The notes: generated from the sequence alone by a model not told the origin. DNA of 47,511 nt from a virus (IMGVR_UViG_2541047920_000001); one strand, 5' to 3'; positions 9,367 to 33,767 are shown, counted from the stretch's first letter. Translations and numbers: made by a program.

Positions 9367-10032
9367 ATGACTGTTGCTGATTTCAAACGCCCCAAATTGG
9401 AGCTCCCAAACGGGGCAAAAAAACTATTACTGCACTCTTGCTGTGCTCCATGTTCCGGTGAAGTGATGGAGGCGCTTCAGGCCTCGGGAATCGACTACAC
9501 CATCTTTTTCTACAACCCGAACATTCATCCTCAGAAAGAGTATTTAATTCGTAAGGATGAGAATATTCGCTTTGCTAAACAACACGGCGTGCCATTTATT
9601 GATGCTGATTACGACACAGACAACTGGTTTGAGCGAGCCAAAGGAATGGAATGGGAGCCTGAACGAGGGATCCGTTGTACCATGTGTTTTGACATGCGTT
9701 TTGAGCGGACTGCACTGTATGCCGCTGAAAATGGTTTCAGTGTGATCAGTAGCTCACTGGGCATTTCACGCTGGAAAAATATGCAGCAGGTTAACGACTG
9801 TGGACGGCGAGCCGTCGCGCATTATCCGGGCATGGTGTACTGGGATTATAACTGGCGAAAACAGGGCGGCTCTTCCCGCATGATTGAAATCAGCAAGCGC
9901 GAACAATTCTATCAGCAGGAATATTGTGGCTGCGTGTATTCACTGCGCGATACCAATCTACACCGCAAATCTCAGGGACGCCCTCTAATCAAAATTGGTC
10001 AACTGCACTACGGTAAGGAAGGACAGGAATGA
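9367..10032 (+). CDS. queH: QueH-like (DUF208) epoxyqueuosine reductase homologue
   Basis: N-terminal …[14 protein letters not shown]… and later …RCTMCF… and …EYCGCVYS… cysteine motifs that I recognise as the QueH/DUF208 signature; about 221 aa (alternative start 9346). Confidence 0.65.
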
Positions 10033-10644
10033 TTTTATATTATGCCAACGGAGCGTAGCAGTGTTTCTATATATAGTACGCCTACCTTAATTTTCAAATA
10101 ATCATGATTAATGAGCAGGTCATCAGTGCAAGCAATGACCTGCTCATCTTGTTGAAATTAGAGGAAATCTTGCAGCCATGATATGGCTTAAAATAACGTT
10201 TGATTATTTTACCTGCTGTTTGTCCCTGGTTTAAAGTCGGTTGTCTGATTTGATTACGCGCAACTGACGCTTACGTATTGAAGTAACGAGCACGAAGACA
10301 CATATTTATCAGTGCCTGTATACGTCAAGAGCAGGAGATTTATGTGCTGGTTCTCAAATGCACGCTGGCTATTGTGGCTGTAATGGCAATTTATTGTCTT
10401 GTTATTGTTCTTATGGATCACCTTTCTGATTGATTTCATATTGGCGAGGTAGCGGTAGTTAAGTAGAATGGCTGCGGGTGCTTGAGGCTATCTGCCTCGG
10501 GCATGAACACCAACGGCAGATAGAGAAAAGCCCCAGTTAACATTACGCGTCCTGCAAGACGCTTAACATTAATCTGAGGCCAATTTCATGCTAGACACAT
10601 GTAGGTTAGCCTCTTACGTGCCGGAAGGCAAGGAGAAGCAGGCT

Positions 10645-24033: not shown

Positions 24034-25541
24034 TGGCAATTCTTGATGATGTGATTGGCGTTTTTTCACCAGGATGGAAAGCGGCAAGGCTGCGTTCCCG
24101 GGCGGTGATCCAGGCTTATGAGGCCGTAAAAACGACGCGGACACACAAAGCCCGGCGGGAAAACCGAACTGCCGACCAGTTAAGCCTCTACGGGGCCGTG
24201 TCGTTACGTGAGCAGGCCCGTTACCTTGATAACAACCACGATCTGGTCATTGGTGTATTTGACAAGCTGGAAGAACGGGTGGTGGGGAAAAACGGGATTA
24301 TTGTCGAGCCACATCCGGTATTACGCAATGGGGCCATTGCCCGTGATCTGGCAGCGGAGATACGCACCCGATGGAGTGAATGGTCTGTCAGTCCGGAAGT
24401 TACCGGGCAGTTTACCCGTCCGATGCTGGAACGTCTGATGCTGCGTACCTGGCTGCGCGATGGTGAGGTGTTTGCCCAGATGGTTTCCGGGCGCATAAAC
24501 AGCCTGACGCCTTCTGCCGGTGTTCATTTCTGGCTGGAGGCACTCGAGCCAGACTTTATTCCCATGACCAGTGATGAGAGCAACAGGCTGAATCAGGGCG
24601 TGTTTGTTGATGACTGGGGGCGTCCCGAAAAATATCTGGTGTATAAAAGTCGTCCTGTATCCGGACGGCAGATGGAAACCAAAGAAGTGGATGCAGAGCG
24701 AATGCTGCATCTTAAATTTGTTCGCCGTCTGCACCAGATGCGCGGGACGTCTTTATTGTCCGGTGTGCTGATCCGCCTCAGTGCCCTGAAAGAATATGAA
24801 GATTCTGAGCTGACTGCAGCAAGGATCGCTGCTGCTCTGGGGATGTACATCCGCAAAGGCGACGGACAGAGCTATGAAACGGATGGTAATGACAGCAAGG
24901 AGAATGAACGCGAGCTTACCATTCAGCCAGGCATTATTTACGACGATCTGAAACCCGGCGAAGAAATCGGAATGGTGAAGTCGGATCGCCCCAATCCTAA
25001 CCTTGAAACTTTTCGTAATGGTCAGTTGCGTGCCGTGGCGGCGGGCAGTCGTCTGAGTTTTTCCAGTACAGCGCGCAACTATAACGGCACTTACAGCGCC
25101 CAGCGTCAGGAGCTGGTTGAATCCACTGATGGCTACCTGATCCTGCAGGACTGGTTTATTGGTGCCGTCACCCGCCCGATGTATCGTGCCTGGCTGAAAC
25201 AGGCTGTGGCATCCGGTGTTATCAGGCTACCCCGCGATCTTGACCGTTCTTCACTGTATACCGCGGTGTATTCCGGACCGGTGATGCCGTGGATTGACCC
25301 TGTTAAGGAGGCTGAGGCCTGGAAAATTCAGATTCGTGGTGGAGCGGCGACAGAATCAGACTGGGTACGTGCAGGTGGTCGTAATCCGGATGATGTCAAA
25401 CGTCGGCGCAAGGCAGAAATTGATGAAAACCGCAAGCTGGATCTGGTATTTGATACCGATCCGGCCAGTGATAAAGGAGGCAGCAGTGCCGCAACGAAAC
25501 GACAGGAGCCGCAGCACACCGACGACCAGTCCGAAGAATAA
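24033..25541 (+). CDS. Portal protein (lambda gpB-like)
   Basis: 502 aa from MAILDD…; acidic C-terminus; gene order W-B-C as in lambda. Confidence 0.8.
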   Translation: MAILDDVIGVFSPGWKAARLRSRAVIQAYEAVKTTRTHKARRENRTADQLSLYGAVSLREQARYLDNNHDLVIGVFDKLEERVVGKNGIIVEPHPVLRNGAIARDLAAEIRTRWSEWSVSPEVTGQFTRPMLERLMLRTWLRDGEVFAQMVSGRINSLTPSAGVHFWLEALEPDFIPMTSDESNRLNQGVFVDDWGRPEKYLVYKSRPVSGRQMETKEVDAERMLHLKFVRRLHQMRGTSLLSGVLIRLSALKEYEDSELTAARIAAALGMYIRKGDGQSYETDGNDSKENERELTIQPGIIYDDLKPGEEIGMVKSDRPNPNLETFRNGQLRAVAAGSRLSFSSTARNYNGTYSAQRQELVESTDGYLILQDWFIGAVTRPMYRAWLKQAVASGVIRLPRDLDRSSLYTAVYSGPVMPWIDPVKEAEAWKIQIRGGAATESDWVRAGGRNPDDVKRRRKAEIDENRKLDLVFDTDPASDKGGSSAATKRQEPQHTDDQSEE

Positions 25542-25554
25542 TTCCTGGTTCAGG

Positions 25555-27513
25555 ATGCAGGCTGGTCACCAGAGTGACGCGGATATTTATATTTATGACG
25601 AGATTGGTTTCTGGGGTGTTACAGCGAAGCAGTTTATCAGTGATCTGAATGCACTGGGCGATATCACCCACATTAATCTCCATATCAATTCACCGGGTGG
25701 CGATGTCTTTGAAGGCATCGCCATTTTTAATGCGCTGAAAACACATGGTGCGTCCATTACCGTTTATGTCGACGGTGTGGCGGCGTCAATGGCGTCGGTC
25801 ATTGCGATGGTGGGAAACCCGGTCATTATGCCGGAAAACACCTTCATGATGATTCATAAACCATTTGGCTTTACGGGCGGTGATGCGGAGGACATGCGCA
25901 CCTATGCCGACCTGCTCGATAAGGTTGAGGCGGTTCTGTTACCCGCTTATGCACAGAAAACCGGGAAAACCACCGATGAAATTGCTGCCATGCTGGCGGA
26001 TGAGACCTGGATGTCCGGTGCCGAATGTCTGGCACATGGATTTGCTGATCAGGTGACGCCAGCCGTTAAGGCAATGGCATGTATTCAGTCAAAACGTACA
26101 GAGGAATTTAAAAAGATGCCGGAATCCATTCGAAACATGATTACTCCGCCACGCAACAGTGCTCCACGCGTACAGGATGATGAACCTGCAGCCTCCCGGA
26201 CGCCAGTGCAGGCAGCAGCACCCGTGGTGGATGAAAACAGTATCCGTGCGCAGGTACTGGCAGAGCAAAAAGCGCGTGTAAACGGTATTAATGATCTGTT
26301 TGCCATGTTTGGCGGGCGTTATCAGACGCTGCAGGCTCAGTGTCTTGCCGATCCTGAGTGTTCGCTGGAGCAGGCCCGCGAAAAGCTGTTGAACGAGATG
26401 GGGCGCGAGTCCACGCCATCCAATAAAAATACACCGGCTCATATTTATGCCGGTAACGGTAATTTTGTGGGGGACGGGATCCGCCAGGCGCTGATGGCGC
26501 GTGCCGGATTTGAAAAAACCGAACGTGATAATGTCTACAACGGGATGACCCTGCGTGAATATGCCCGTATGTCACTGACTGAACGGGGTATTGGGGTTTC
26601 CGGTTATAACCCGATGCAGATGGTCGGTGCGGCGTTCACCCACAGTACGTCTGACTTCGGTAATATTCTGCTGGATGTTGCGAACAAAGCCATTCTGCAG
26701 GGCTGGGAAGATGCTCCTGAAACCTATGAACAATGGACGCGGAAAGGTCAGTTGTCTGATTTTAAAATTGCCCATCGTGTGGGTATGGGGGGCTTCAGTG
26801 CTCTGCGTCAGGTGCGTGAAGGGGCGGAATATAAATACGTCACCACCGGAGATAAACAGGCCACTATTGCACTGGCGACCTATGGCGAGCTGTTCAGTAT
26901 CACCCGTCAGGCCATTATCAATGATGATCTGAATATGCTGACCGATGTCCCGATGAAACTGGGCCGTGCGGCGAAATCCACTATTGCCGATCTGGTTTAT
27001 GCCATTCTGACGTCTAACCCGAAAATCTCCACAGATAATGTAAGTCTGTTCGATAAAGCGAAACATGCAAACGTACTGGAGAGCGCTGCAATGGACGTGG
27101 CATCGCTGGATAAAGCCCGCCAGTTGATGCGCGTTCAGAAAGAGGGGGAGCGTCATCTGAATATTCGTCCTGCGTTCGTACTGGTACCGACGGCGATGGA
27201 GTCTGTTGCTAACCAGGTCATTCGCTCCTCAAGTGTCAAGGGGGCTGACATTAACGCCGGTATTATTAACCCGGTGAAAGATTTTGCGACCGTTATTGCA
27301 GAGCCTCGTCTTGATGATAACAGCCAGACCACCTTCTACCTGGCTGCGTCAAAAGGCTCCGATACGATTGAAGTGGCTTATCTCAACGGTGTGGATACGC
27401 CATATATTGATCAGATGGAGGGCTTCAGTGTGGATGGCGTGACAACGAAAGTGCGTATTGACGCCGGTGTCGCGCCAGTTGATCACCGCGGTCTGGTGAA
27501 ATGTACGGCGTAA
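25555..27513 (+). CDS. Prohead protease (ClpP/S49-like) - scaffold - major capsid protein, single ORF
   Basis: 652 aa from MQAGHQ; N-terminal ClpP-like domain (…NSPGGDV…MAASMASVIAM…), Ala/Gln-rich middle, C-terminal capsid-like domain. Confidence 0.75.
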   Translation: MQAGHQSDADIYIYDEIGFWGVTAKQFISDLNALGDITHINLHINSPGGDVFEGIAIFNALKTHGASITVYVDGVAASMASVIAMVGNPVIMPENTFMMIHKPFGFTGGDAEDMRTYADLLDKVEAVLLPAYAQKTGKTTDEIAAMLADETWMSGAECLAHGFADQVTPAVKAMACIQSKRTEEFKKMPESIRNMITPPRNSAPRVQDDEPAASRTPVQAAAPVVDENSIRAQVLAEQKARVNGINDLFAMFGGRYQTLQAQCLADPECSLEQAREKLLNEMGRESTPSNKNTPAHIYAGNGNFVGDGIRQALMARAGFEKTERDNVYNGMTLREYARMSLTERGIGVSGYNPMQMVGAAFTHSTSDFGNILLDVANKAILQGWEDAPETYEQWTRKGQLSDFKIAHRVGMGGFSALRQVREGAEYKYVTTGDKQATIALATYGELFSITRQAIINDDLNMLTDVPMKLGRAAKSTIADLVYAILTSNPKISTDNVSLFDKAKHANVLESAAMDVASLDKARQLMRVQKEGERHLNIRPAFVLVPTAMESVANQVIRSSSVKGADINAGIINPVKDFATVIAEPRLDDNSQTTFYLAASKGSDTIEVAYLNGVDTPYIDQMEGFSVDGVTTKVRIDAGVAPVDHRGLVKCTA

Positions 27514-29201: not shown

Positions 29202-29945
29202 ATGACCACACCAAATCCACTGGCAAAGACGAAAGGTGCGGGGACGACGTTCTGGATGTATACCGGCAACGGCGATGCGTTTGCGAACCCTTTGTCGGAC
29301 ACTGACTGGCTGCGTCTTGCGATGGTGAAGGATCTGCAACCTGGCGAAATGACCGCTGATGCAGAAGATGACACTTATCTCGATGATGAAGATGCAGACT
29401 GGAAAACGACAACCCAGGGGCAGAAATCCGTTGGTGATACTTCGGCGACGCTGGCCTGGCGTCCGGGTGACAGCGGGCAGAAAAAACTGGTTCAGTTGTT
29501 CGACTCCGGTGAAGTCTGCGCGTTTCGTATCAAATATCCCAACGGCACTGTTGATGTTTTCCGTGGCTGGCTGAGCTCACTGGGTAAAACCATTGCCTCA
29601 AAAGACGTGATGACCCGCACTGTGAAAATCAGCGGTGTGGGGCGTCCGTATCTGGCAGAGGAAGGCACTGAAACCGTGAGCGTTACCGGGCTGACAGTAT
29701 CACCGGCGTCTGCCAGTGTAAAAGTGGGAGCAACCACCACGCTGACCTTTACAGTAAAACCTGACGGAGCCAGTGACAAAGCGATCAGGGTGCATTCGTC
29801 AGATCCACAGACTGCCACGGTTACCCTGAACGGACTTGTGGCCACGGTAAAAGGCGTGAAGCAGGGCAGTGTCAGCATTGTGGGCATGACCGCTGACGGG
29901 AATTTTGTGGCTGTGACTGCGGTGACTGTCAGCGCCGCAGGTTAA
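29202..29945 (+). CDS. Major tail protein (lambda gpV-like) with C-terminal Ig-like domain
   Basis: 247 aa from MTTPNP (AGGAGG RBS); C-terminal Thr/Val-rich Ig-like segment. Confidence 0.8.
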   Translation: MTTPNPLAKTKGAGTTFWMYTGNGDAFANPLSDTDWLRLAMVKDLQPGEMTADAEDDTYLDDEDADWKTTTQGQKSVGDTSATLAWRPGDSGQKKLVQLFDSGEVCAFRIKYPNGTVDVFRGWLSSLGKTIASKDVMTRTVKISGVGRPYLAEEGTETVSVTGLTVSPASASVKVGATTTLTFTVKPDGASDKAIRVHSSDPQTATVTLNGLVATVKGVKQGSVSIVGMTADGNFVAVTAVTVSAAG

Positions 29946-29965
29946 CAGGACGATACTCATCATTT

Positions 29966-29989
29966 GCCCCGGTTATGCGGGGCTTTTTT
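29966..29989 (+). terminator. Hairpin plus T-tract between V and G (attenuator-like)
   Basis: GCCCCG-GTTAT-GCGGGGC followed by TTTTTT. Confidence 0.5.
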
Positions 29990-30002
29990 GCAGGTGGAGA
30001 AC

Positions 30003-30392
30003 ATGATGTTTCTGAAACAGGACACGTTTAATTATGAAAAACAGTCCGTGGTGCTCAGTGAGCTGTCCGGGCTGCAGAGAATTGAATATCTGACGTTTGT
30101 TCAGCAGCGAACGGCAAAGTTTGATGCCGTGGAGGGAGAACTGCCGGAGGCTGAACGACAGATTGCTTTTCTGCGGATGGGGATGGATATCAATGCCTGG
30201 CTGGTTTCCCGCTCACTGTGGAATGCGGATCAGTCTAAGGATGTAGAGACGCTTTGCGCATCCGTTATTACAACATGGTCGTATGATGCCCTGGGTGCGG
30301 GGGCGGAGATGGTTCTGTCGCTGAGCGGTATGGGGGCCATTGATAATGCCGTGGATGATGAGCATGAGGCGCTGACGCCGGAAAAGTCCTGA
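30003..30392 (+). CDS. Tail assembly chaperone (lambda gpG-like)
   Basis: 129 aa MMFLKQDTFNYEKQSVVLSELSGLQRIEYL… resembles gpG. Confidence 0.8.
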   Translation: MMFLKQDTFNYEKQSVVLSELSGLQRIEYLTFVQQRTAKFDAVEGELPEAERQIAFLRMGMDINAWLVSRSLWNADQSKDVETLCASVITTWSYDALGAGAEMVLSLSGMGAIDNAVDDEHEALTPEKS

Positions 30393-30730
30393 CGCGGGAA
30401 ATGCAGTTTGTCATGCGGCTTGCCCGGGAGTTCCGGCGGGCAGACTGGCGGCGGATGCTGTCGGAAATGTCGGCCACTGAGCTTGGTGAGTGGGGCGATT
30501 ATTTCCGGATGCAGAGCTTCAGTGATGTGTGGATGGATGCGCAGTTTGCCTCGCTGAAGGCATTGATCGTGAGAATGGTGTCCGGCAGCAGTGATGCTGC
30601 GGTGGCTGATTTCAGCCTTTTACCGGAAGAGAACGGGATACCGGAGCGAACGGACGAAGAACTGATGCATCTTGGGGAAGGTATTTCCGGAGGTGTGCGT
30701 TATGGACCAGATAGCCAACCTGGTCATTGA
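30368..30730 (+). CDS. Tail assembly chaperone T domain, -1 frame relative to G (expected G-T programmed frameshift product)
   Basis: Open frame in the -1 phase from 30368 overlapping the 3' end of G; no independent RBS; G then G-T arrangement matches lambda. Confidence 0.6.
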   Translation, partial: GADAGKVLTREMQFVMRLAREFRRADWRRMLSEMSATELGEWGDYFRMQSFSDVWMDAQFASLKALIVRMVSGSSDAAVADFSLLPEENGIPERTDEELMHLGEGISGGVRYGPDSQPGH

Positions 30731-33700
30731 TTTGGGGATTGATGCGGCAGAGTTTAAAAATGAAATTCCCCGTATCAAAAACCTTCTGAATGGTGCAGCC
30801 AGCGATGCAGAACGGTCTTCTGCCCGTATGCAGCGTTTTATGGAGCGTCAGACTCAGGCCGCCCGGCAGACAACGCAGGCAGCTTCTTCGGCTGCAACAG
30901 CCGCATCCGTCCATGCGCAGACGGTGGAGAAGAACGCACAGGCTCATGAACGCATGGCCCGCGAGGTGGAGAAAACCCGCCAGCGCATGGAGGCACTGAG
31001 CCAGAAAATGCGCGAGGAACAGGCGCAGGCCATGGCTCTGGCGGAGGCTCAGGATAAAGCGGCTGCTGCGTTTTATCGTCAGATTGACAGTGTGAAACAG
31101 GCCAGTGCGGGGCTGCAGGAATTACAGCGTATTCAGCAGCAGATCCGACAGGCCAGAAACAGTGGCGGGATTGGTCAGCAGGATTATCTGGCGCTGATTT
31201 CTGAGGTTACGGCGAAAACCCGTGTTCTTACGCAGGCTGAGGCAGAGGCTACCCGACAGAAAGTGGCGTTTATCCGTCAGCTTAAAGAGCAGGCAACCCG
31301 CCAGAATCTTTCTTCTTCTGAGTTGCTTCGTGCCAGGGCTGCCCAGCTGGGGGTAAGCAGTGCTGCAGAAGTGTATATCCGCAAAATGGAGCGGGCAGGA
31401 AAAGCCACGCATTCGCTGGGTCTGAAAAGTGCAGCGGCCCGCCAGGAGATAGGCGTTCTGATAGGTGAACTGGCCCGCGGCAATTTAGGGGCGCTGAGGG
31501 GATCCGGGATAACGCTGGCTAACCGTGCCGGATGGATAGACACACTGATGTCACCGAAAGGCATGATGCCAGGTGGGGTTATTGGTGGTATTGCCGCGGC
31601 TGTCTATGGTCTGGGTAAAGCCTGGTATGACGGTCAGAAGGAGGGGGAAGAATTTAACCGCCAGCTGTCGCTGACGGGGCATTATGCCGGAGTCACTGCC
31701 GGGCAGCTGTGGACGCTCAGTCGTGCTATTTCCGGGAATGGTATCACGCAACATGCTGCAGCCGGTGCGCTGGCTCAGGTGGTGGGGAGTGGTGCATTTC
31801 GTGGAAACGATATCGGTATGGTGGCGAGAGCTGCCGCACAGATGGAGCGATCGGTTGGCCAGTCGGTCAGCGATACCATAAATCAGTTTAAGCGGCTGAA
31901 GGATGATCCTGTAAATGCCGCGAAGTCTCTGGACAATGAGCTGCATTTTCTTACTGCCACTCAGCTTGAGCAGATACGCGTCCTTGGAGAGCAGGGGCGG
32001 TCCAGTGATGCGGCACGGATAGCCATGTCTGCACTGGCAGAGGAAACCGGTCGGCGTACTGCGGATATTGATAATAACCTCAATGCGCTGGGCAGTACGC
32101 TGCAAACTTTGTCTGACTGGTGGAAGCAGTTCTGGGATGCGGCCATGAATATTGGTCGTGAAGATTCGCTGGATGCGCAGATTGCCACTTTGCAGGAGAA
32201 AGTGTCGCGGGCGAAAAGACTCCCCTGGACGGCGTCATCTTCTCAGGTTGAATACGATCAGCAGCGTCTTAACGATCTTCAGGAGAAAAAACGCCAGAAG
32301 GATTTGCAGGATGCAAAAGAGCAGGCAGAGCGGAATTATCAGGAGCAACAGAAACGCCGTAATGCTGAAAATGCTGCACTGAACCGGATGAATGAAACGG
32401 AAGCTGCACGACATCAGCGTGAAATTGCGCGTATTAATGCCATGCAGTACGCCGATCAGGCTGTCAGGGATGCGGCGATACAACGTGAAAATGAACGTTA
32501 CGAGAAAGCCCTGGCATCCGGTAAGAAAAAAACACGCGAAACCCGTAATGATGAGGCCACCCGGTTATTGCTGCAGTACAGTCAGCAACAGGCACAGGTG
32601 GAAGGACAGATTGCTGCTGCCAGACAGTCAGCAGGCATTGCCACGGAAAGGATGACAGAAGCGCATAAACAGCTTCTGGCTCTGCAGCAGCGCATCAGCG
32701 ACCTGGACGGGAAAAAACTGACGGCAGATGAAAAGAGTGTGCTGGCCCGTAAAGATGAACTGATTCAGGCACTGACGCTGCTGGATGTAAAACAGCAGGA
32801 GCTTCAGAAACAGACGGCACTCAACGAGCTGAAGAAAAAAACAATTCAGCTGACCAGTCAACTGGCTGAAGAAGAGCGCGCTCAGCGTCAGCAACATGAC
32901 CTGGATATCGCCACGGTGGGTATGGGTGATCAGCAGCGACAGCGATATCAGGTACAACTGAGTCTTCGCCAGAAATACCAGCAACAGCTGGAGCAGTTGA
33001 GGCGGGATAGTGAGCAGAAAGGGACATATAACACGGATGACTACAGAAAGGCCGAGCAGGCGCTGACGGAGAGCCTGAACCGACAACTGAATGAGAATCG
33101 CCGTTACTGGCAACAGCTTGAAGTTGTGCAGGGTAACTGGAAAAACGGAGTCCTGCGTGCATTTCAGGATTTTACCGTGGATGCAGATAATACGGCAGAA
33201 ACAGCAGAACAGGTGTTCTCGTCAGCCTTCAGCAACATGGGAAATGGCCTGGCAACTTTTGTCACTACCGGCAAACTCAATTTCAAATCCTTCACCTCTT
33301 CTGTGCTGTCAGATATGGCGAAAATCCTGGCGCAGGCAACCATGATGAAATCGATAAAAGGGATTGGCAGTGTACTGGGATTTGATCTCAGCAGCCTTTC
33401 CCTGAATGCCAATGGGGGGATTTATCAGTCTGCTGATTTGAGTCGTTACAGTGGCACGGTGGTTAACCGTCCGACGTTTTTTGCTTTTGCAAAAGGCGCG
33501 GGTGTGATGGGGGAAGCGGGACCTGAAGCCATTCTGCCATTGCGTCGTGGTGCTGACGGTAAGCTGGGGGTTGTGGCGGATATTGGGGGTTCAGGTATGG
33601 CGATGTTTTCCCCGCAGTACAACATCGAGATCAATAACGATGGCACGAACGGGCAGATAGGTCCGGCTGCCCTGAAGGCGGTTTATGACCTCGGGAAAAA

Positions 33701-33767
33701 AGCGGCAGCGGACTTTATGCAACAGCAGGCCCGTGATGGTGGTCGGTTAAGTGGAGCATATCGGTAA
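30702..33767 (+). CDS. Tail tape-measure protein (lambda gpH-like)
   Basis: About 1021 aa, long Ala/Gln/Glu-rich coiled-coil protein between G-T and M. Confidence 0.85.
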   Translation: MDQIANLVIDLGIDAAEFKNEIPRIKNLLNGAASDAERSSARMQRFMERQTQAARQTTQAASSAATAASVHAQTVEKNAQAHERMAREVEKTRQRMEALSQKMREEQAQAMALAEAQDKAAAAFYRQIDSVKQASAGLQELQRIQQQIRQARNSGGIGQQDYLALISEVTAKTRVLTQAEAEATRQKVAFIRQLKEQATRQNLSSSELLRARAAQLGVSSAAEVYIRKMERAGKATHSLGLKSAAARQEIGVLIGELARGNLGALRGSGITLANRAGWIDTLMSPKGMMPGGVIGGIAAAVYGLGKAWYDGQKEGEEFNRQLSLTGHYAGVTAGQLWTLSRAISGNGITQHAAAGALAQVVGSGAFRGNDIGMVARAAAQMERSVGQSVSDTINQFKRLKDDPVNAAKSLDNELHFLTATQLEQIRVLGEQGRSSDAARIAMSALAEETGRRTADIDNNLNALGSTLQTLSDWWKQFWDAAMNIGREDSLDAQIATLQEKVSRAKRLPWTASSSQVEYDQQRLNDLQEKKRQKDLQDAKEQAERNYQEQQKRRNAENAALNRMNETEAARHQREIARINAMQYADQAVRDAAIQRENERYEKALASGKKKTRETRNDEATRLLLQYSQQQAQVEGQIAAARQSAGIATERMTEAHKQLLALQQRISDLDGKKLTADEKSVLARKDELIQALTLLDVKQQELQKQTALNELKKKTIQLTSQLAEEERAQRQQHDLDIATVGMGDQQRQRYQVQLSLRQKYQQQLEQLRRDSEQKGTYNTDDYRKAEQALTESLNRQLNENRRYWQQLEVVQGNWKNGVLRAFQDFTVDADNTAETAEQVFSSAFSNMGNGLATFVTTGKLNFKSFTSSVLSDMAKILAQATMMKSIKGIGSVLGFDLSSLSLNANGGIYQSADLSRYSGTVVNRPTFFAFAKGAGVMGEAGPEAILPLRRGADGKLGVVADIGGSGMAMFSPQYNIEINNDGTNGQIGPAALKAVYDLGKKAAADFMQQQARDGGRLSGAYR

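What the first reader, a model, noticed from the sequence alone, without database searches (positions are those of the whole stretch)
30360..30400. G-T programmed frameshift region with a non-canonical slippery sequence
Seen: the T reading frame is open only from 30368 and has no RBS or start of its own until an internal ATG at 30401, while G terminates at 30390-30392. Any G-T fusion must therefore shift -1 within 30368-30389. The only slippery-looking stretch is CCGGAAAAG (30378-30386), not the GGGAAAG heptamer of lambda. Established: a conserved -1 frameshift producing G-T is essentially universal in long-tailed phages. Inference: slippage here probably occurs on the A-AAA-G run with a different P-site context.
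Basis: partly seen in the sequence, partly recalled or inferred. Interest (0 to 1): 0.45.

Follow-up and report, generated by a model that had tools for sequence, protein, structure and literature searches.

The report
Lambda-type G-T tail chaperone frameshift site
This is the ordinary lambda-style ribosomal frameshift that makes the G-T tail-assembly fusion protein, using the heptamer G GAA AAG, which is the commonest slip site in this phage family and is already annotated as such in phages N15 and phi80.

Summary
G (30006-30392, Pfam Phage_TAC_2) ends at TGA 30390-30392. The T frame (Pfam Phage_tail_T) is -1 relative to G and is open only from 30368. Its first start codon is the ATG at 30401. 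The only slip-prone sequence in the 22-nt overlap is G GAA AAG (30380-30386).

This heptamer lies exactly where lambda has G GGA AAG. The fusion junctions align without a gap: lambda ...AGK|VFDGELSF.., window ...PEK|VLTREMQF...

The site is non-canonical only by the X_XXY_YYZ rule and by comparison with lambda.
- GGAAAAG is the heptamer in 20 of 24 diverged G-T lineages, and in 49 of 77 distinct IMG/VR sequences.
- All seven positions appear to be under nucleotide-level selection.
- GenBank records of N15 and phi80 already annotate GGAAAAG as the "slippery sequence for -1 translational frameshift".

No conserved downstream RNA structure was found. An SD-like GAGG lies 10 nt upstream here and in some other lineages, but not in all.

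Verdict: a real, conserved -1 frameshift site that is already known. Two points are worth recording. The window's own phage group (mEp460/cdtI) and RefSeq annotate T as a stand-alone ORF. The same heptamer was used as the "unfavourable" control in an in vitro frameshifting study.

The parts
29966..29990 (+). Terminator-like GC hairpin plus T-run between the major tail gene (V homologue) and G. This is context, not part of the frameshift signal.
   Evidence: Found by the terminator scan. The same site is annotated as a rho-independent terminator in mEp460 and N15.
30006..30392 (+). G, the tail assembly chaperone, and the zero-frame product (128 aa). An alternative ATG lies at 30003. The stop is TGA at 30390-30392.
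   Evidence: Pfam PF06894 Phage_TAC_2, E=5.9e-40. RefSeq annotates it as 'phage tail assembly chaperone G'. GGAG at 29996-29999 gives better spacing to the ATG at 30006.
30365..30367 (+). TGA in the T (-1) frame. It sets the 5' limit of the window in which the shift can occur.
30366..30369 (+). SD-like GAGG, 10 nt upstream of the heptamer. It is a possible dnaX-like stimulator, but this is only a hypothesis.
   Evidence: An SD-like 4-mer lies 6-17 nt upstream in 11 of 26 lineages, against 2.9 expected. GAGG sits at exactly -14 in 8 lineages. It is absent in lambda, N15 and phi80, and it overlaps a conserved Glu codon.
30380..30386 (+). Slippery heptamer G GAA AAG, read as GGA AAA G after the -1 shift.
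   Evidence: Positional homologue of lambda G GGA AAG. It is under nucleotide-level conservation. The same heptamer is annotated as the slippery sequence in N15 and phi80.
30386..30730 (+). The T portion, in the -1 frame from GTC at 30386 to the stop at 30728-30730. The fusion G-T is 30006..30386 joined to 30386..30730 (241 aa).
   Evidence: Pfam PF06223 Phage_tail_T, E=5.1e-15. The fusion aligns end to end with lambda GT.
30401..30403 (+). Internal ATG that public annotations use as the start of a stand-alone T ORF. It is probably just Met codon 6 of the T segment.
   Evidence: It is used as the T start in mEp460, PhiR55_1 and RefSeq. It is not conserved: most relatives have CTG, CGT or CTT there, and lambda has Leu. 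There is no spaced SD.
30702..33767 (+). Tape measure gene. It overlaps the end of T by 29 nt.
   Evidence: Pfam TMP_2, Tape_meas_lam_C and TMP_4; ORF list.

Best explanation
A small fraction of ribosomes translating G slip back one nucleotide on G GAA AAG (30380-30386) and continue in the T frame. This makes a 241-aa G-T fusion (...EALTPEK-VLTREMQF...). The remaining ribosomes terminate two codons later and make G.

The main determinant is tRNA-Lys moving from AAG to AAA. The P-site tRNA-Glu moves from GAA to GGA. It keeps its first- and third-position pairs and has a G.U pair at the middle position.

By homology with lambda, the G part of the fusion binds the tape measure protein and the T part recruits the major tail protein. 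The low slip frequency sets a high G:GT ratio.

Shown here: gene order and frames, homology, positional identity with the lambda site, and nucleotide-level conservation of all seven positions. Inferred: the re-pairing geometry, the efficiency, and the existence of the fusion protein.
For: 1. The locus is a lambda-type tail module in the order V - G - T - tape measure - M, L, K, I. G and T match the lambda G and T Pfam families.

2. The junctions align without a gap: lambda AGK|VFDGELSFALKLARE against window PEK|VLTREMQFVMRLARE. The 132-column DNA alignment of 26 diverse relatives is also gap-free. Columns 31, 32 and 34-37 (the heptamer) are invariant, and none of the 30 columns upstream is.

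3. Among 24 lineages clustered at 80% GT identity, 20 have GGAAAAG and 4 have GGGAAAG.
- The preceding codon is always NNG (CCG, GCG or CTG). Elsewhere in the same genes, G-ending codons make up only 32-53% for those amino acids.
- The Lys codon is AAG in 24 of 24, against 31% elsewhere.
- The Glu codon is GAA in 20 of 20, against 58% elsewhere.

4. IMG/VR was scanned with patterns anchored on the T motif at a fixed distance.
- Only 2 contigs have a first base other than G.
- Only 6 have a last base other than G.
- Only 1 has a second base other than G.

5. N15 (NC_001901) and phi80 (FN582354) annotate exactly GGAAAAG as the 'slippery sequence for -1 translational frameshift', and phi80 carries a joined gpG-T CDS. 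Gifsy-2 has the identical local sequence ACGCCGGAAAAGTCCTGA, and its T is annotated as part of a frameshift hybrid.

6. The sequenced phage records mEp460, cdtI, Ayreon, Tritos and HannyBb carry this exact site.

7. Literature support.
- A_AAG is the most shift-prone tetramer in E. coli (PMC4066793).
- Non-X_XXY precedents exist: A_CGA_AAG in cdd and G_CGA_AAG in IS1222 (PMC5009743).
- tRNA-Glu re-pairing from GAA to GGA through a G.U pair has been proposed for the GGGGGAA sites of actinophage chaperone genes. PRFect's 'twofour' motif class, named in that paper, appears to fit GGAAAA; this is my reading of the motif name (PMC10885494).
Against: No protein-level evidence was available here.

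In a reconstituted E. coli translation system, AUG GAA AAG (the same heptamer) was chosen as the sequence 'unfavorable for slippage', and it gave mainly zero-frame product (PMC6924986).

Reporter constructs carrying tetramers without a stimulator frameshift at only about 0.15% (PMC4066793).

No conserved downstream structure was found. Window folds gave z = -1.56 and 0.35. The alignment fold predicted only 4 pairs far downstream, with no covariation.

The upstream SD-like element is not universal. The efficiency could therefore be well below lambda's few percent.
Confidence: 0.82

Rival explanations
1. T is made on its own. Ribosomes that terminate at TGA 30390-30392 reinitiate 8 nt downstream at ATG 30401, or initiate there de novo. 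This gives the 109-aa protein that public records annotate, and no fusion is needed.
For: An ATG exists at 30401, and mEp460, PhiR55_1 and RefSeq/PGAP annotate T from it. The whole Pfam T domain lies downstream of it, at residues 35-110 of the T-frame translation. The stop-to-start distance is short enough for translational coupling.
Against: The ATG is not conserved. Most relatives have CTG, CGT or CTT there, and lambda has Leu.

There is no properly spaced SD, because GGGAA abuts the ATG.

The T-frame Glu codon just upstream of the ATG is nearly invariant, even though it lies beyond the G stop in lineages like this one.

This model does not explain the seven-position nucleotide conservation of the heptamer.

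In lambda, the G part of the fusion is what tethers T to the tape measure protein (review PMC5009743).
Confidence: 0.08
2. The shift is a single-tRNA event on the A_AAG tetramer only. Only tRNA-Lys slips, either in the A site or in the P site with TCC or the stop codon waiting. The identity of the upstream G GA is irrelevant.
For: A_AAG is the best tetramer in E. coli, and CGA_AAG sites work in cdd and IS1222. [quoted passage not shown] In some lineages the G stop follows the heptamer directly (G GAA AAG TAG in Proteus). Variants ending in AAA TAG also exist. Both would favour P-site slippage at a slow A site. The protein product would be identical.
Against: The first G is a synonymous third-codon position, yet it is G in 24 of 24 lineages and in all but 2 IMG/VR contigs. 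The P-site codon is restricted to GAA or GGA, with a single GCAAAAG exception. If only A_AAG mattered, any NNA codon and any preceding base would serve.
Confidence: 0.15
3. Slippage is transcriptional. RNA polymerase adds or drops an A in the A4 run, giving mRNAs that encode the fusion directly.
For: The site contains a short A run (AAAA, 30382-30385). Transcriptional slippage is a known alternative route to fusion products in some genes (PMC5009743).
Against: Four A residues fall well short of the runs used to flag slippage-prone sites: the GeneTack study set a minimum of 7 nt (PMC3711429). Lambda-type relatives have only AAA (GGGAAAG) at the same position. Conservation of the flanking G's and of the terminal G fits tRNA re-pairing rather than polymerase slippage.
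Confidence: 0.02

Closest known systems
Phage lambda G / G-T programmed -1 frameshift (Levin, Hendrix and Casjens 1993; Xu, Hendrix and Duda 2004, 2013, 2014; cited in PMC5009743)
   Same: The gene order is the same, and G and T belong to the same Pfam families. T is in the same -1 frame. The slip position is the same to the codon, and the A-site codon AAG is the same. Neither has a conserved downstream structure in this alignment.
   Different: The third base of the heptamer is A rather than G. The P-site codon is therefore GAA (Glu) rather than GGA (Gly), and re-pairing in the -1 frame needs a middle-position G.U pair. The G stop is 3 nt after the heptamer, against 15 nt in lambda. GT is 241 aa, against 279 aa.
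Phage N15 genes 14/15 and phage phi80 genes 14/15 (gpG-T), as annotated in GenBank
   Same: The heptamer GGAAAAG is identical, sits at the homologous position, and is explicitly annotated as the 'slippery sequence for -1 translational frameshift'.
   Different: GT protein identity to the window is only about 37%. The preceding codon is GCG rather than CCG. The G stop lies 15 nt downstream. Neither has GAGG at -14.
Salmonella prophage Gifsy-2 G/T (STM1039 / STM1041.1n)
   Same: GT identity is 54.5%. The local sequence ACGCCGGAAAAGTCCTGA is identical, and GAGG is 10 nt upstream. T is annotated as part of a frameshift hybrid.
   Different: The record gives no join or slippery-site feature, and the T-frame sequence after the stop differs.
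Non-X_XXY -1 sites built on A_AAG: B. subtilis cdd (A_CGA_AAG) and IS1222 (G_CGA_AAG); E. coli dnaX (A_AAA_AAG with an upstream SD and a hairpin)
   Same: All rely on E. coli-type tRNA-Lys slipping from AAG to AAA. The P-site codon does not re-pair perfectly. Here, a possible SD-like element sits at the dnaX-like 10-nt spacing.
   Different: No hairpin or pseudoknot was detected. The SD-like element is only 4 nt long and is specific to some lineages. The genes and products are unrelated.

Membership tests
Lambda-type G/G-T tail assembly chaperone frameshift | Two overlapping ORFs lie between the major tail protein gene and the tape measure gene. | tested here: met
   V homologue 29202-29945, G 30006-30392, T frame 30368-30730, tape measure from 30702.
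Lambda-type G/G-T tail assembly chaperone frameshift | The upstream ORF is homologous to gpG and the downstream ORF to gpT. | tested here: met
   PF06894, E=5.9e-40, and PF06223, E=5.1e-15. The fusion has 37% identity to lambda GT along its whole length.
Lambda-type G/G-T tail assembly chaperone frameshift | The downstream ORF is in the -1 frame, overlaps the 3' end of G, and has no conserved start codon or RBS of its own. | tested here: met
   Frame arithmetic and the 22-nt overlap. ATG 30401 has no spaced SD and is not conserved in relatives.
Lambda-type G/G-T tail assembly chaperone frameshift | A slippery heptamer lies in the overlap, at the position homologous to lambda G GGA AAG. | tested here: met
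   Gap-free alignment puts GGAAAAG on GGGAAAG.
Lambda-type G/G-T tail assembly chaperone frameshift | The heptamer obeys the canonical X_XXY_YYZ rule. | tested here: not met
   In G_GAA_AAG the P-site codon GAA becomes GGA in the -1 frame, which is a middle-position G.U pair with tRNA-Glu (noted as a second-position mismatch in PMC6924986). This is a rule about motif shape, not about family membership: N15 and phi80 use the same heptamer.
Lambda-type G/G-T tail assembly chaperone frameshift | The slip site is conserved at the nucleotide level beyond what the protein sequence requires. | tested here: met
   Codon-choice statistics.
Lambda-type G/G-T tail assembly chaperone frameshift | A G-T fusion protein is produced at a few percent of G and is required for tail assembly. 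| not testable with these tools
   This needs a western blot, mass spectrometry or genetics. The only indirect evidence is that sequenced phage records carry this site.
dnaX-type stimulated -1 frameshift | An upstream SD-like sequence at about 10 nt and a downstream stem-loop. | tested here: inconclusive
   GAGG lies 10 nt upstream here. SD-like 4-mers are enriched in relatives (11 of 26 against 2.9 expected), but they are absent in many and are confounded by a conserved Glu codon. No significant or conserved downstream structure was found.
Tetramer-only (Z_ZZN) -1 sites such as cdd and IS1222 CGA_AAG | A_AAG is sufficient, and the upstream bases are unconstrained. | tested here: not met
   A_AAG is present, but the upstream G and the G[A/G]A codon are also conserved.

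The most novel reading that the evidence does not exclude
G_GAA_AAG is a positively selected heptamer that does not fit X_XXY_YYZ. Its P-site tRNA-Glu re-pairs on GGA through a second-position G.U pair. In the native context, including the GAGG 10 nt upstream and the nearby G stop, it reaches a biologically tuned efficiency. This would hold even though the bare heptamer behaves as 'unfavourable' in a reconstituted system. If true, the bacterial -1 frameshift motif set should be widened, because genome screens limited to X_XXZ_ZZN miss it. It would also provide a natural, very widespread test case for P-site mismatch tolerance.
Probability: 0.4. Interest if true: 0.45.

Novelty: already known. 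Interest (0 to 1): 0.28.

Why it matters
The practical value lies mostly in annotation.
- This exact G-T region, at 95% identity or more, occurs in 1,846 of 5,426 complete E. coli genomes.
- In the RefSeq and phage records inspected for this clade, T is annotated as a stand-alone 109-aa ORF starting at a non-conserved ATG. The likely real product is a 241-aa G-T fusion.

There is also a small mechanistic point. The commonest slip site in the lambda-like G-T family is the heptamer that an in vitro study used as its poorly slipping control. Screens restricted to X_XXZ_ZZN motifs cannot find it. A reporter assay on this 60-nt region would show how much a second-position G.U pair in the P site costs in vivo. 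It would also show whether the upstream GAGG or the nearby stop codon compensates.

Tried and rejected
1. A downstream stimulatory hairpin or pseudoknot. Folds of 30380-30480 and 30387-30450 are no better than shuffled sequence (z = -1.56 and 0.35). RNAalifold on 26 diverse relatives finds only a 4-pair helix about 60 nt downstream, with no covariation. Rejected.

2. Statistical significance of the heptamer on its own. There are 13 copies in the window against 7.8 expected, so this is not informative.

3. Literature searches for 'GGAAAAG' plus frameshift returned only unrelated papers. The phrase search 'GAA AAG' found the Peng et al. control. A search on phi80/N15/frameshift gave nothing on experimental tests of this heptamer.

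4. The first IMG/VR and protein-guided scans returned only near-identical relatives. Diversity came from the one-genome-per-species collection and from pattern scans.

They were rerun with a longer anchor.

6. A universal upstream SD stimulator. It is enriched but not universal, and it is confounded with a conserved Glu codon. It is kept only as a hypothesis.

7. I could not obtain a true denominator for GGRAAAG sites in IMG/VR, because the scan stops at 120 rows.

Full report
WHAT IS THERE

The window carries a lambda-type tail module from an mEp460/cdtI-like lambdoid E. coli prophage. The region 29950-30750 is 97.5-99.9% identical to phages PhiR55_1, mEp460, Tritos, HannyBb, cdtI and Ayreon. 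It is present at 95% identity or more in 1,846 of 5,426 complete E. coli genomes.

The gene order is as follows.
- A major tail protein (Pfam Phage_TTP_12 plus a Big_2 Ig-like domain).
- G, at 30003/30006-30392 (PF06894 Phage_TAC_2, E=5.9e-40).
- A -1 frame ORF carrying PF06223 Phage_tail_T (E=5.1e-15).
- The tape measure gene, from 30702.
- Homologues of lambda M, L, K and I.

CHECK OF THE OBSERVATION

- G ends ...ACG CCG GAA AAG TCC TGA, with the stop at 30390-30392.
- The T frame has TGA at 30365-30367 and is open from 30368.
- It contains no ATG, GTG or TTG until the ATG at 30401. The G-rich stretch before that ATG (GGGAA, 30396-30400) abuts it, so it cannot act as a spaced Shine-Dalgarno sequence.
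- T is the -1 frame relative to G.
- Within the 22-nt overlap, the only repetitive sequence is G GAA AAG (30380-30386).

The heptamer by itself is not rare: the window has 13 copies against 7.8 +/- 3.1 expected. The case therefore rests on position and conservation.

COMPARISON WITH LAMBDA

I translated lambda G up to its known slip site and continued in the T frame, then did the same for the window. The two fusions align along their whole length at 37% identity.
- The junctions are in register: lambda ...PVSAGK|VFDGELSFALKLAREMGRPDW, window ...EALTPEK|VLTREMQFVMRLAREFRRADW.
- The window's heptamer is therefore lambda's G GGA AAG with one transition, at the same codon.
- The Met encoded by ATG 30401 aligns with a lambda Leu.

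CONSERVATION ACROSS RELATIVES

Eighty close relatives from IMG/VR all keep CCGGAAAAG.

The one-genome-per-species collection gave homologues at 38-56% identity from many Enterobacterales. These include Kosakonia, Xenorhabdus, Proteus, Kluyvera, Erwinia, Serratia, Enterobacter, Citrobacter, Edwardsiella and others.
- In every one, the G frame contains GGAAAAG or GGGAAAG at the same distance from the conserved T motif. The upstream sequence is unrelated between lineages.
- A 26-sequence DNA alignment is gap-free. None of the 30 columns upstream of the heptamer is invariant. Six of the seven heptamer columns are invariant and the third is G or A. Further invariant columns begin 20 bases downstream, in T-coding codons.

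I clustered the sequences at 80% GT identity, which gave 24 lineages: 20 with GGAAAAG and 4 with GGGAAAG.
- The codon before the heptamer encodes Pro, Ala or Leu but always ends in G. Elsewhere in these genes, G-ending codons for those amino acids make up 40%, 32% and 53%.
- The Lys codon is always AAG, against 31% elsewhere.
- The Glu codon is always GAA, against 58% elsewhere.
- The lineages are not phylogenetically independent, so I give no P value. The direction is nevertheless unambiguous.

As a collection-wide control, I scanned IMG/VR with patterns anchored on the T motif at fixed spacing.
- A first base other than G occurs in 2 contigs: AGAAAAG and AGGAAAG.
- A last base other than G occurs in 6 contigs: GGGAAAA or GGAAAAA. 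Five of these are followed directly by TAG.
- A second base other than G occurs in 1 contig: GCAAAAG.
- Among 77 distinct sequences in the sampled hits, 49 are GGAAAAG and 28 are GGGAAAG.

G GAA AAG is therefore the majority slip site of this family, not an oddity.

PRIOR KNOWLEDGE

The GenBank record of phage N15 marks GGAAAAG (10027-10033) as the 'slippery sequence for -1 translational frameshift'. The phi80 record does the same (10194-10200) and also gives a joined gpG-T CDS.

Gifsy-2 has the identical local sequence ACGCCGGAAAAGTCCTGA, and its T is described as part of a frameshift hybrid protein.

In contrast, mEp460, Ayreon, PhiR55_1 and RefSeq/PGAP annotate T in this clade as a separate ORF from the internal ATG, or from an even later start in Ayreon. 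The element and this heptamer variant are therefore already known. What is missing is consistent annotation.

MECHANISM

The E. coli literature supports tRNA-Lys slipping from AAG to AAA as the main driver.
- A_AAG is the most shift-prone tetramer, and G_GGA_AAG is among the best heptamers (PMC4066793; PMC5009743).
- Sites with imperfect P-site re-pairing are known: A_CGA_AAG in B. subtilis cdd and G_CGA_AAG in IS1222.

Here the P-site tRNA-Glu would move from GAA to GGA, which creates a middle-position G.U pair.
- The same GAA-to-GGA re-pairing through a G.U pair has been proposed for the GGGGGAA sites of actinophage chaperone genes. PRFect's 'twofour' motif class, named in that paper, appears to fit GGAAAA; this is my reading of the motif name (PMC10885494).
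- A thermodynamic analysis of dnaX variants found that A.U to G.U changes in the P site carry a moderate penalty, partly offset by the favourable A-site change from AAG to AAA (PMC6787027). That study did not test the second position.
- The conserved first G, and the restriction of the P-site codon to GAA or GGA, argue that P-site re-pairing matters. This counts against a pure tetramer mechanism.

A caution is needed. Peng et al. used AUG GAA AAG as their 'unfavorable' control and saw mainly zero-frame product in vitro (PMC6924986). Motifs without stimulators frameshift at well below 1% in reporter constructs. The efficiency here is therefore unknown and may be low. A low level would still fit the roughly 30:1 G:GT ratio reported for lambda (PMC5009743).

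STIMULATORS

I found no downstream structure.
- Folds of the window are no better than shuffled sequence.
- The alignment fold has no covariation.

Upstream, GAGG (30366-30369) lies 10 nt before the heptamer, which is the spacing used in dnaX.
- SD-like 4-mers occur 6-17 nt upstream in 11 of 26 lineages, against 2.9 expected from the rest of the G genes.
- GAGG is at exactly -14 in 8 lineages.
- However, lambda has GAGC there, and N15 and phi80 have GAAC. The motif also overlaps a conserved Glu codon. I treat it as an untested hypothesis.

The G stop lies 0, 3 or 15 nt after the heptamer in different lineages. It is 3 nt here.

RIVALS

Independent initiation or reinitiation at ATG 30401 is possible as a side reaction, but it does not explain three things.
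- The heptamer is conserved.
- The ATG is not conserved.
- A T-frame Glu codon upstream of the ATG is conserved.

Transcriptional slippage on four A residues is implausible, and it does not fit the lambda-type AAA sites.

VERDICT

This is a genuine, conserved, lambda-type -1 programmed frameshift site. The site is not novel, and within its family it is not unusual.

Noticed in passing
window 29966-29990: A strong terminator-like hairpin (GCCCCG-GTTATG-CGGGGC followed by TTTTTT) sits between the major tail gene and G. The same site is annotated as a rho-independent terminator in mEp460 and N15. It could attenuate transcription of G, T and the tape measure gene relative to the major tail gene.
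   Followed up: partly
window 30366-30369; relatives L094, L096, L098, L116, L141, L144, L156: GAGG lies exactly 10 nt upstream of the heptamer in this and seven other lineages. SD-like 4-mers occur 6-17 nt upstream in 11 of 26 lineages, against 2.9 expected. This is a dnaX-like spacing, but the motif is absent in lambda, N15 and phi80 and overlaps a conserved Glu codon.
   Followed up: partly
L099, L104-L106 (Proteus prophages); L282-L286 (IMG/VR): In some lineages the G stop codon follows the heptamer directly: G GAA AAG TAG in Proteus, and G GGA AAA TAG or G GAA AAA TAG in IMG/VR contigs. Five of the six IMG/VR contigs whose heptamer ends in A rather than G have this adjacent TAG. This suggests a stop-assisted P-site slip variant.
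   Followed up: no
L289 2267-2273; L279 482-488; L280 2130-2136: These are rare natural exceptions to the GGRAAAG rule at the homologous site: G CAA AAG, A GAA AAG and A GGA AAG. Each occurs in one contig. Whether they are functional, compensated or defective is unknown.
   Followed up: no
L128-L133, L135-L138 (genome-contig hits): Lambda-identical G-T sequence occurs on short or low-coverage contigs in assemblies labelled Neobacillus, Oceanobacillus, Kitasatospora, Chromatium, Shewanella, Pseudomonas, Paenibacillus and Leeuwenhoekiella. This is almost certainly lambda DNA contamination or spike-in in those assemblies.
   Followed up: no
window 25294-27513: A single long ORF (up to 739 aa) lies upstream of the tail genes. 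Its N-terminal part looks like a ClpP-type prohead protease and its C-terminal part looks capsid-like, which suggests a protease-capsid fusion gene. This rests on reading the translation only and was not checked against family libraries.
   Followed up: no
window 30702-30730: The tape measure ORF starts (ATG 30702) 29 nt before the T-frame stop (30728-30730). This overlap is longer than the 8-nt T/H overlap in lambda.
   Followed up: no
window 30003-30008: G has tandem ATG ATG start codons. mEp460 annotates the first and RefSeq the second. GGAG at 29996-29999 and lambda's MFLK N-terminus both favour the second (30006).
   Followed up: partly
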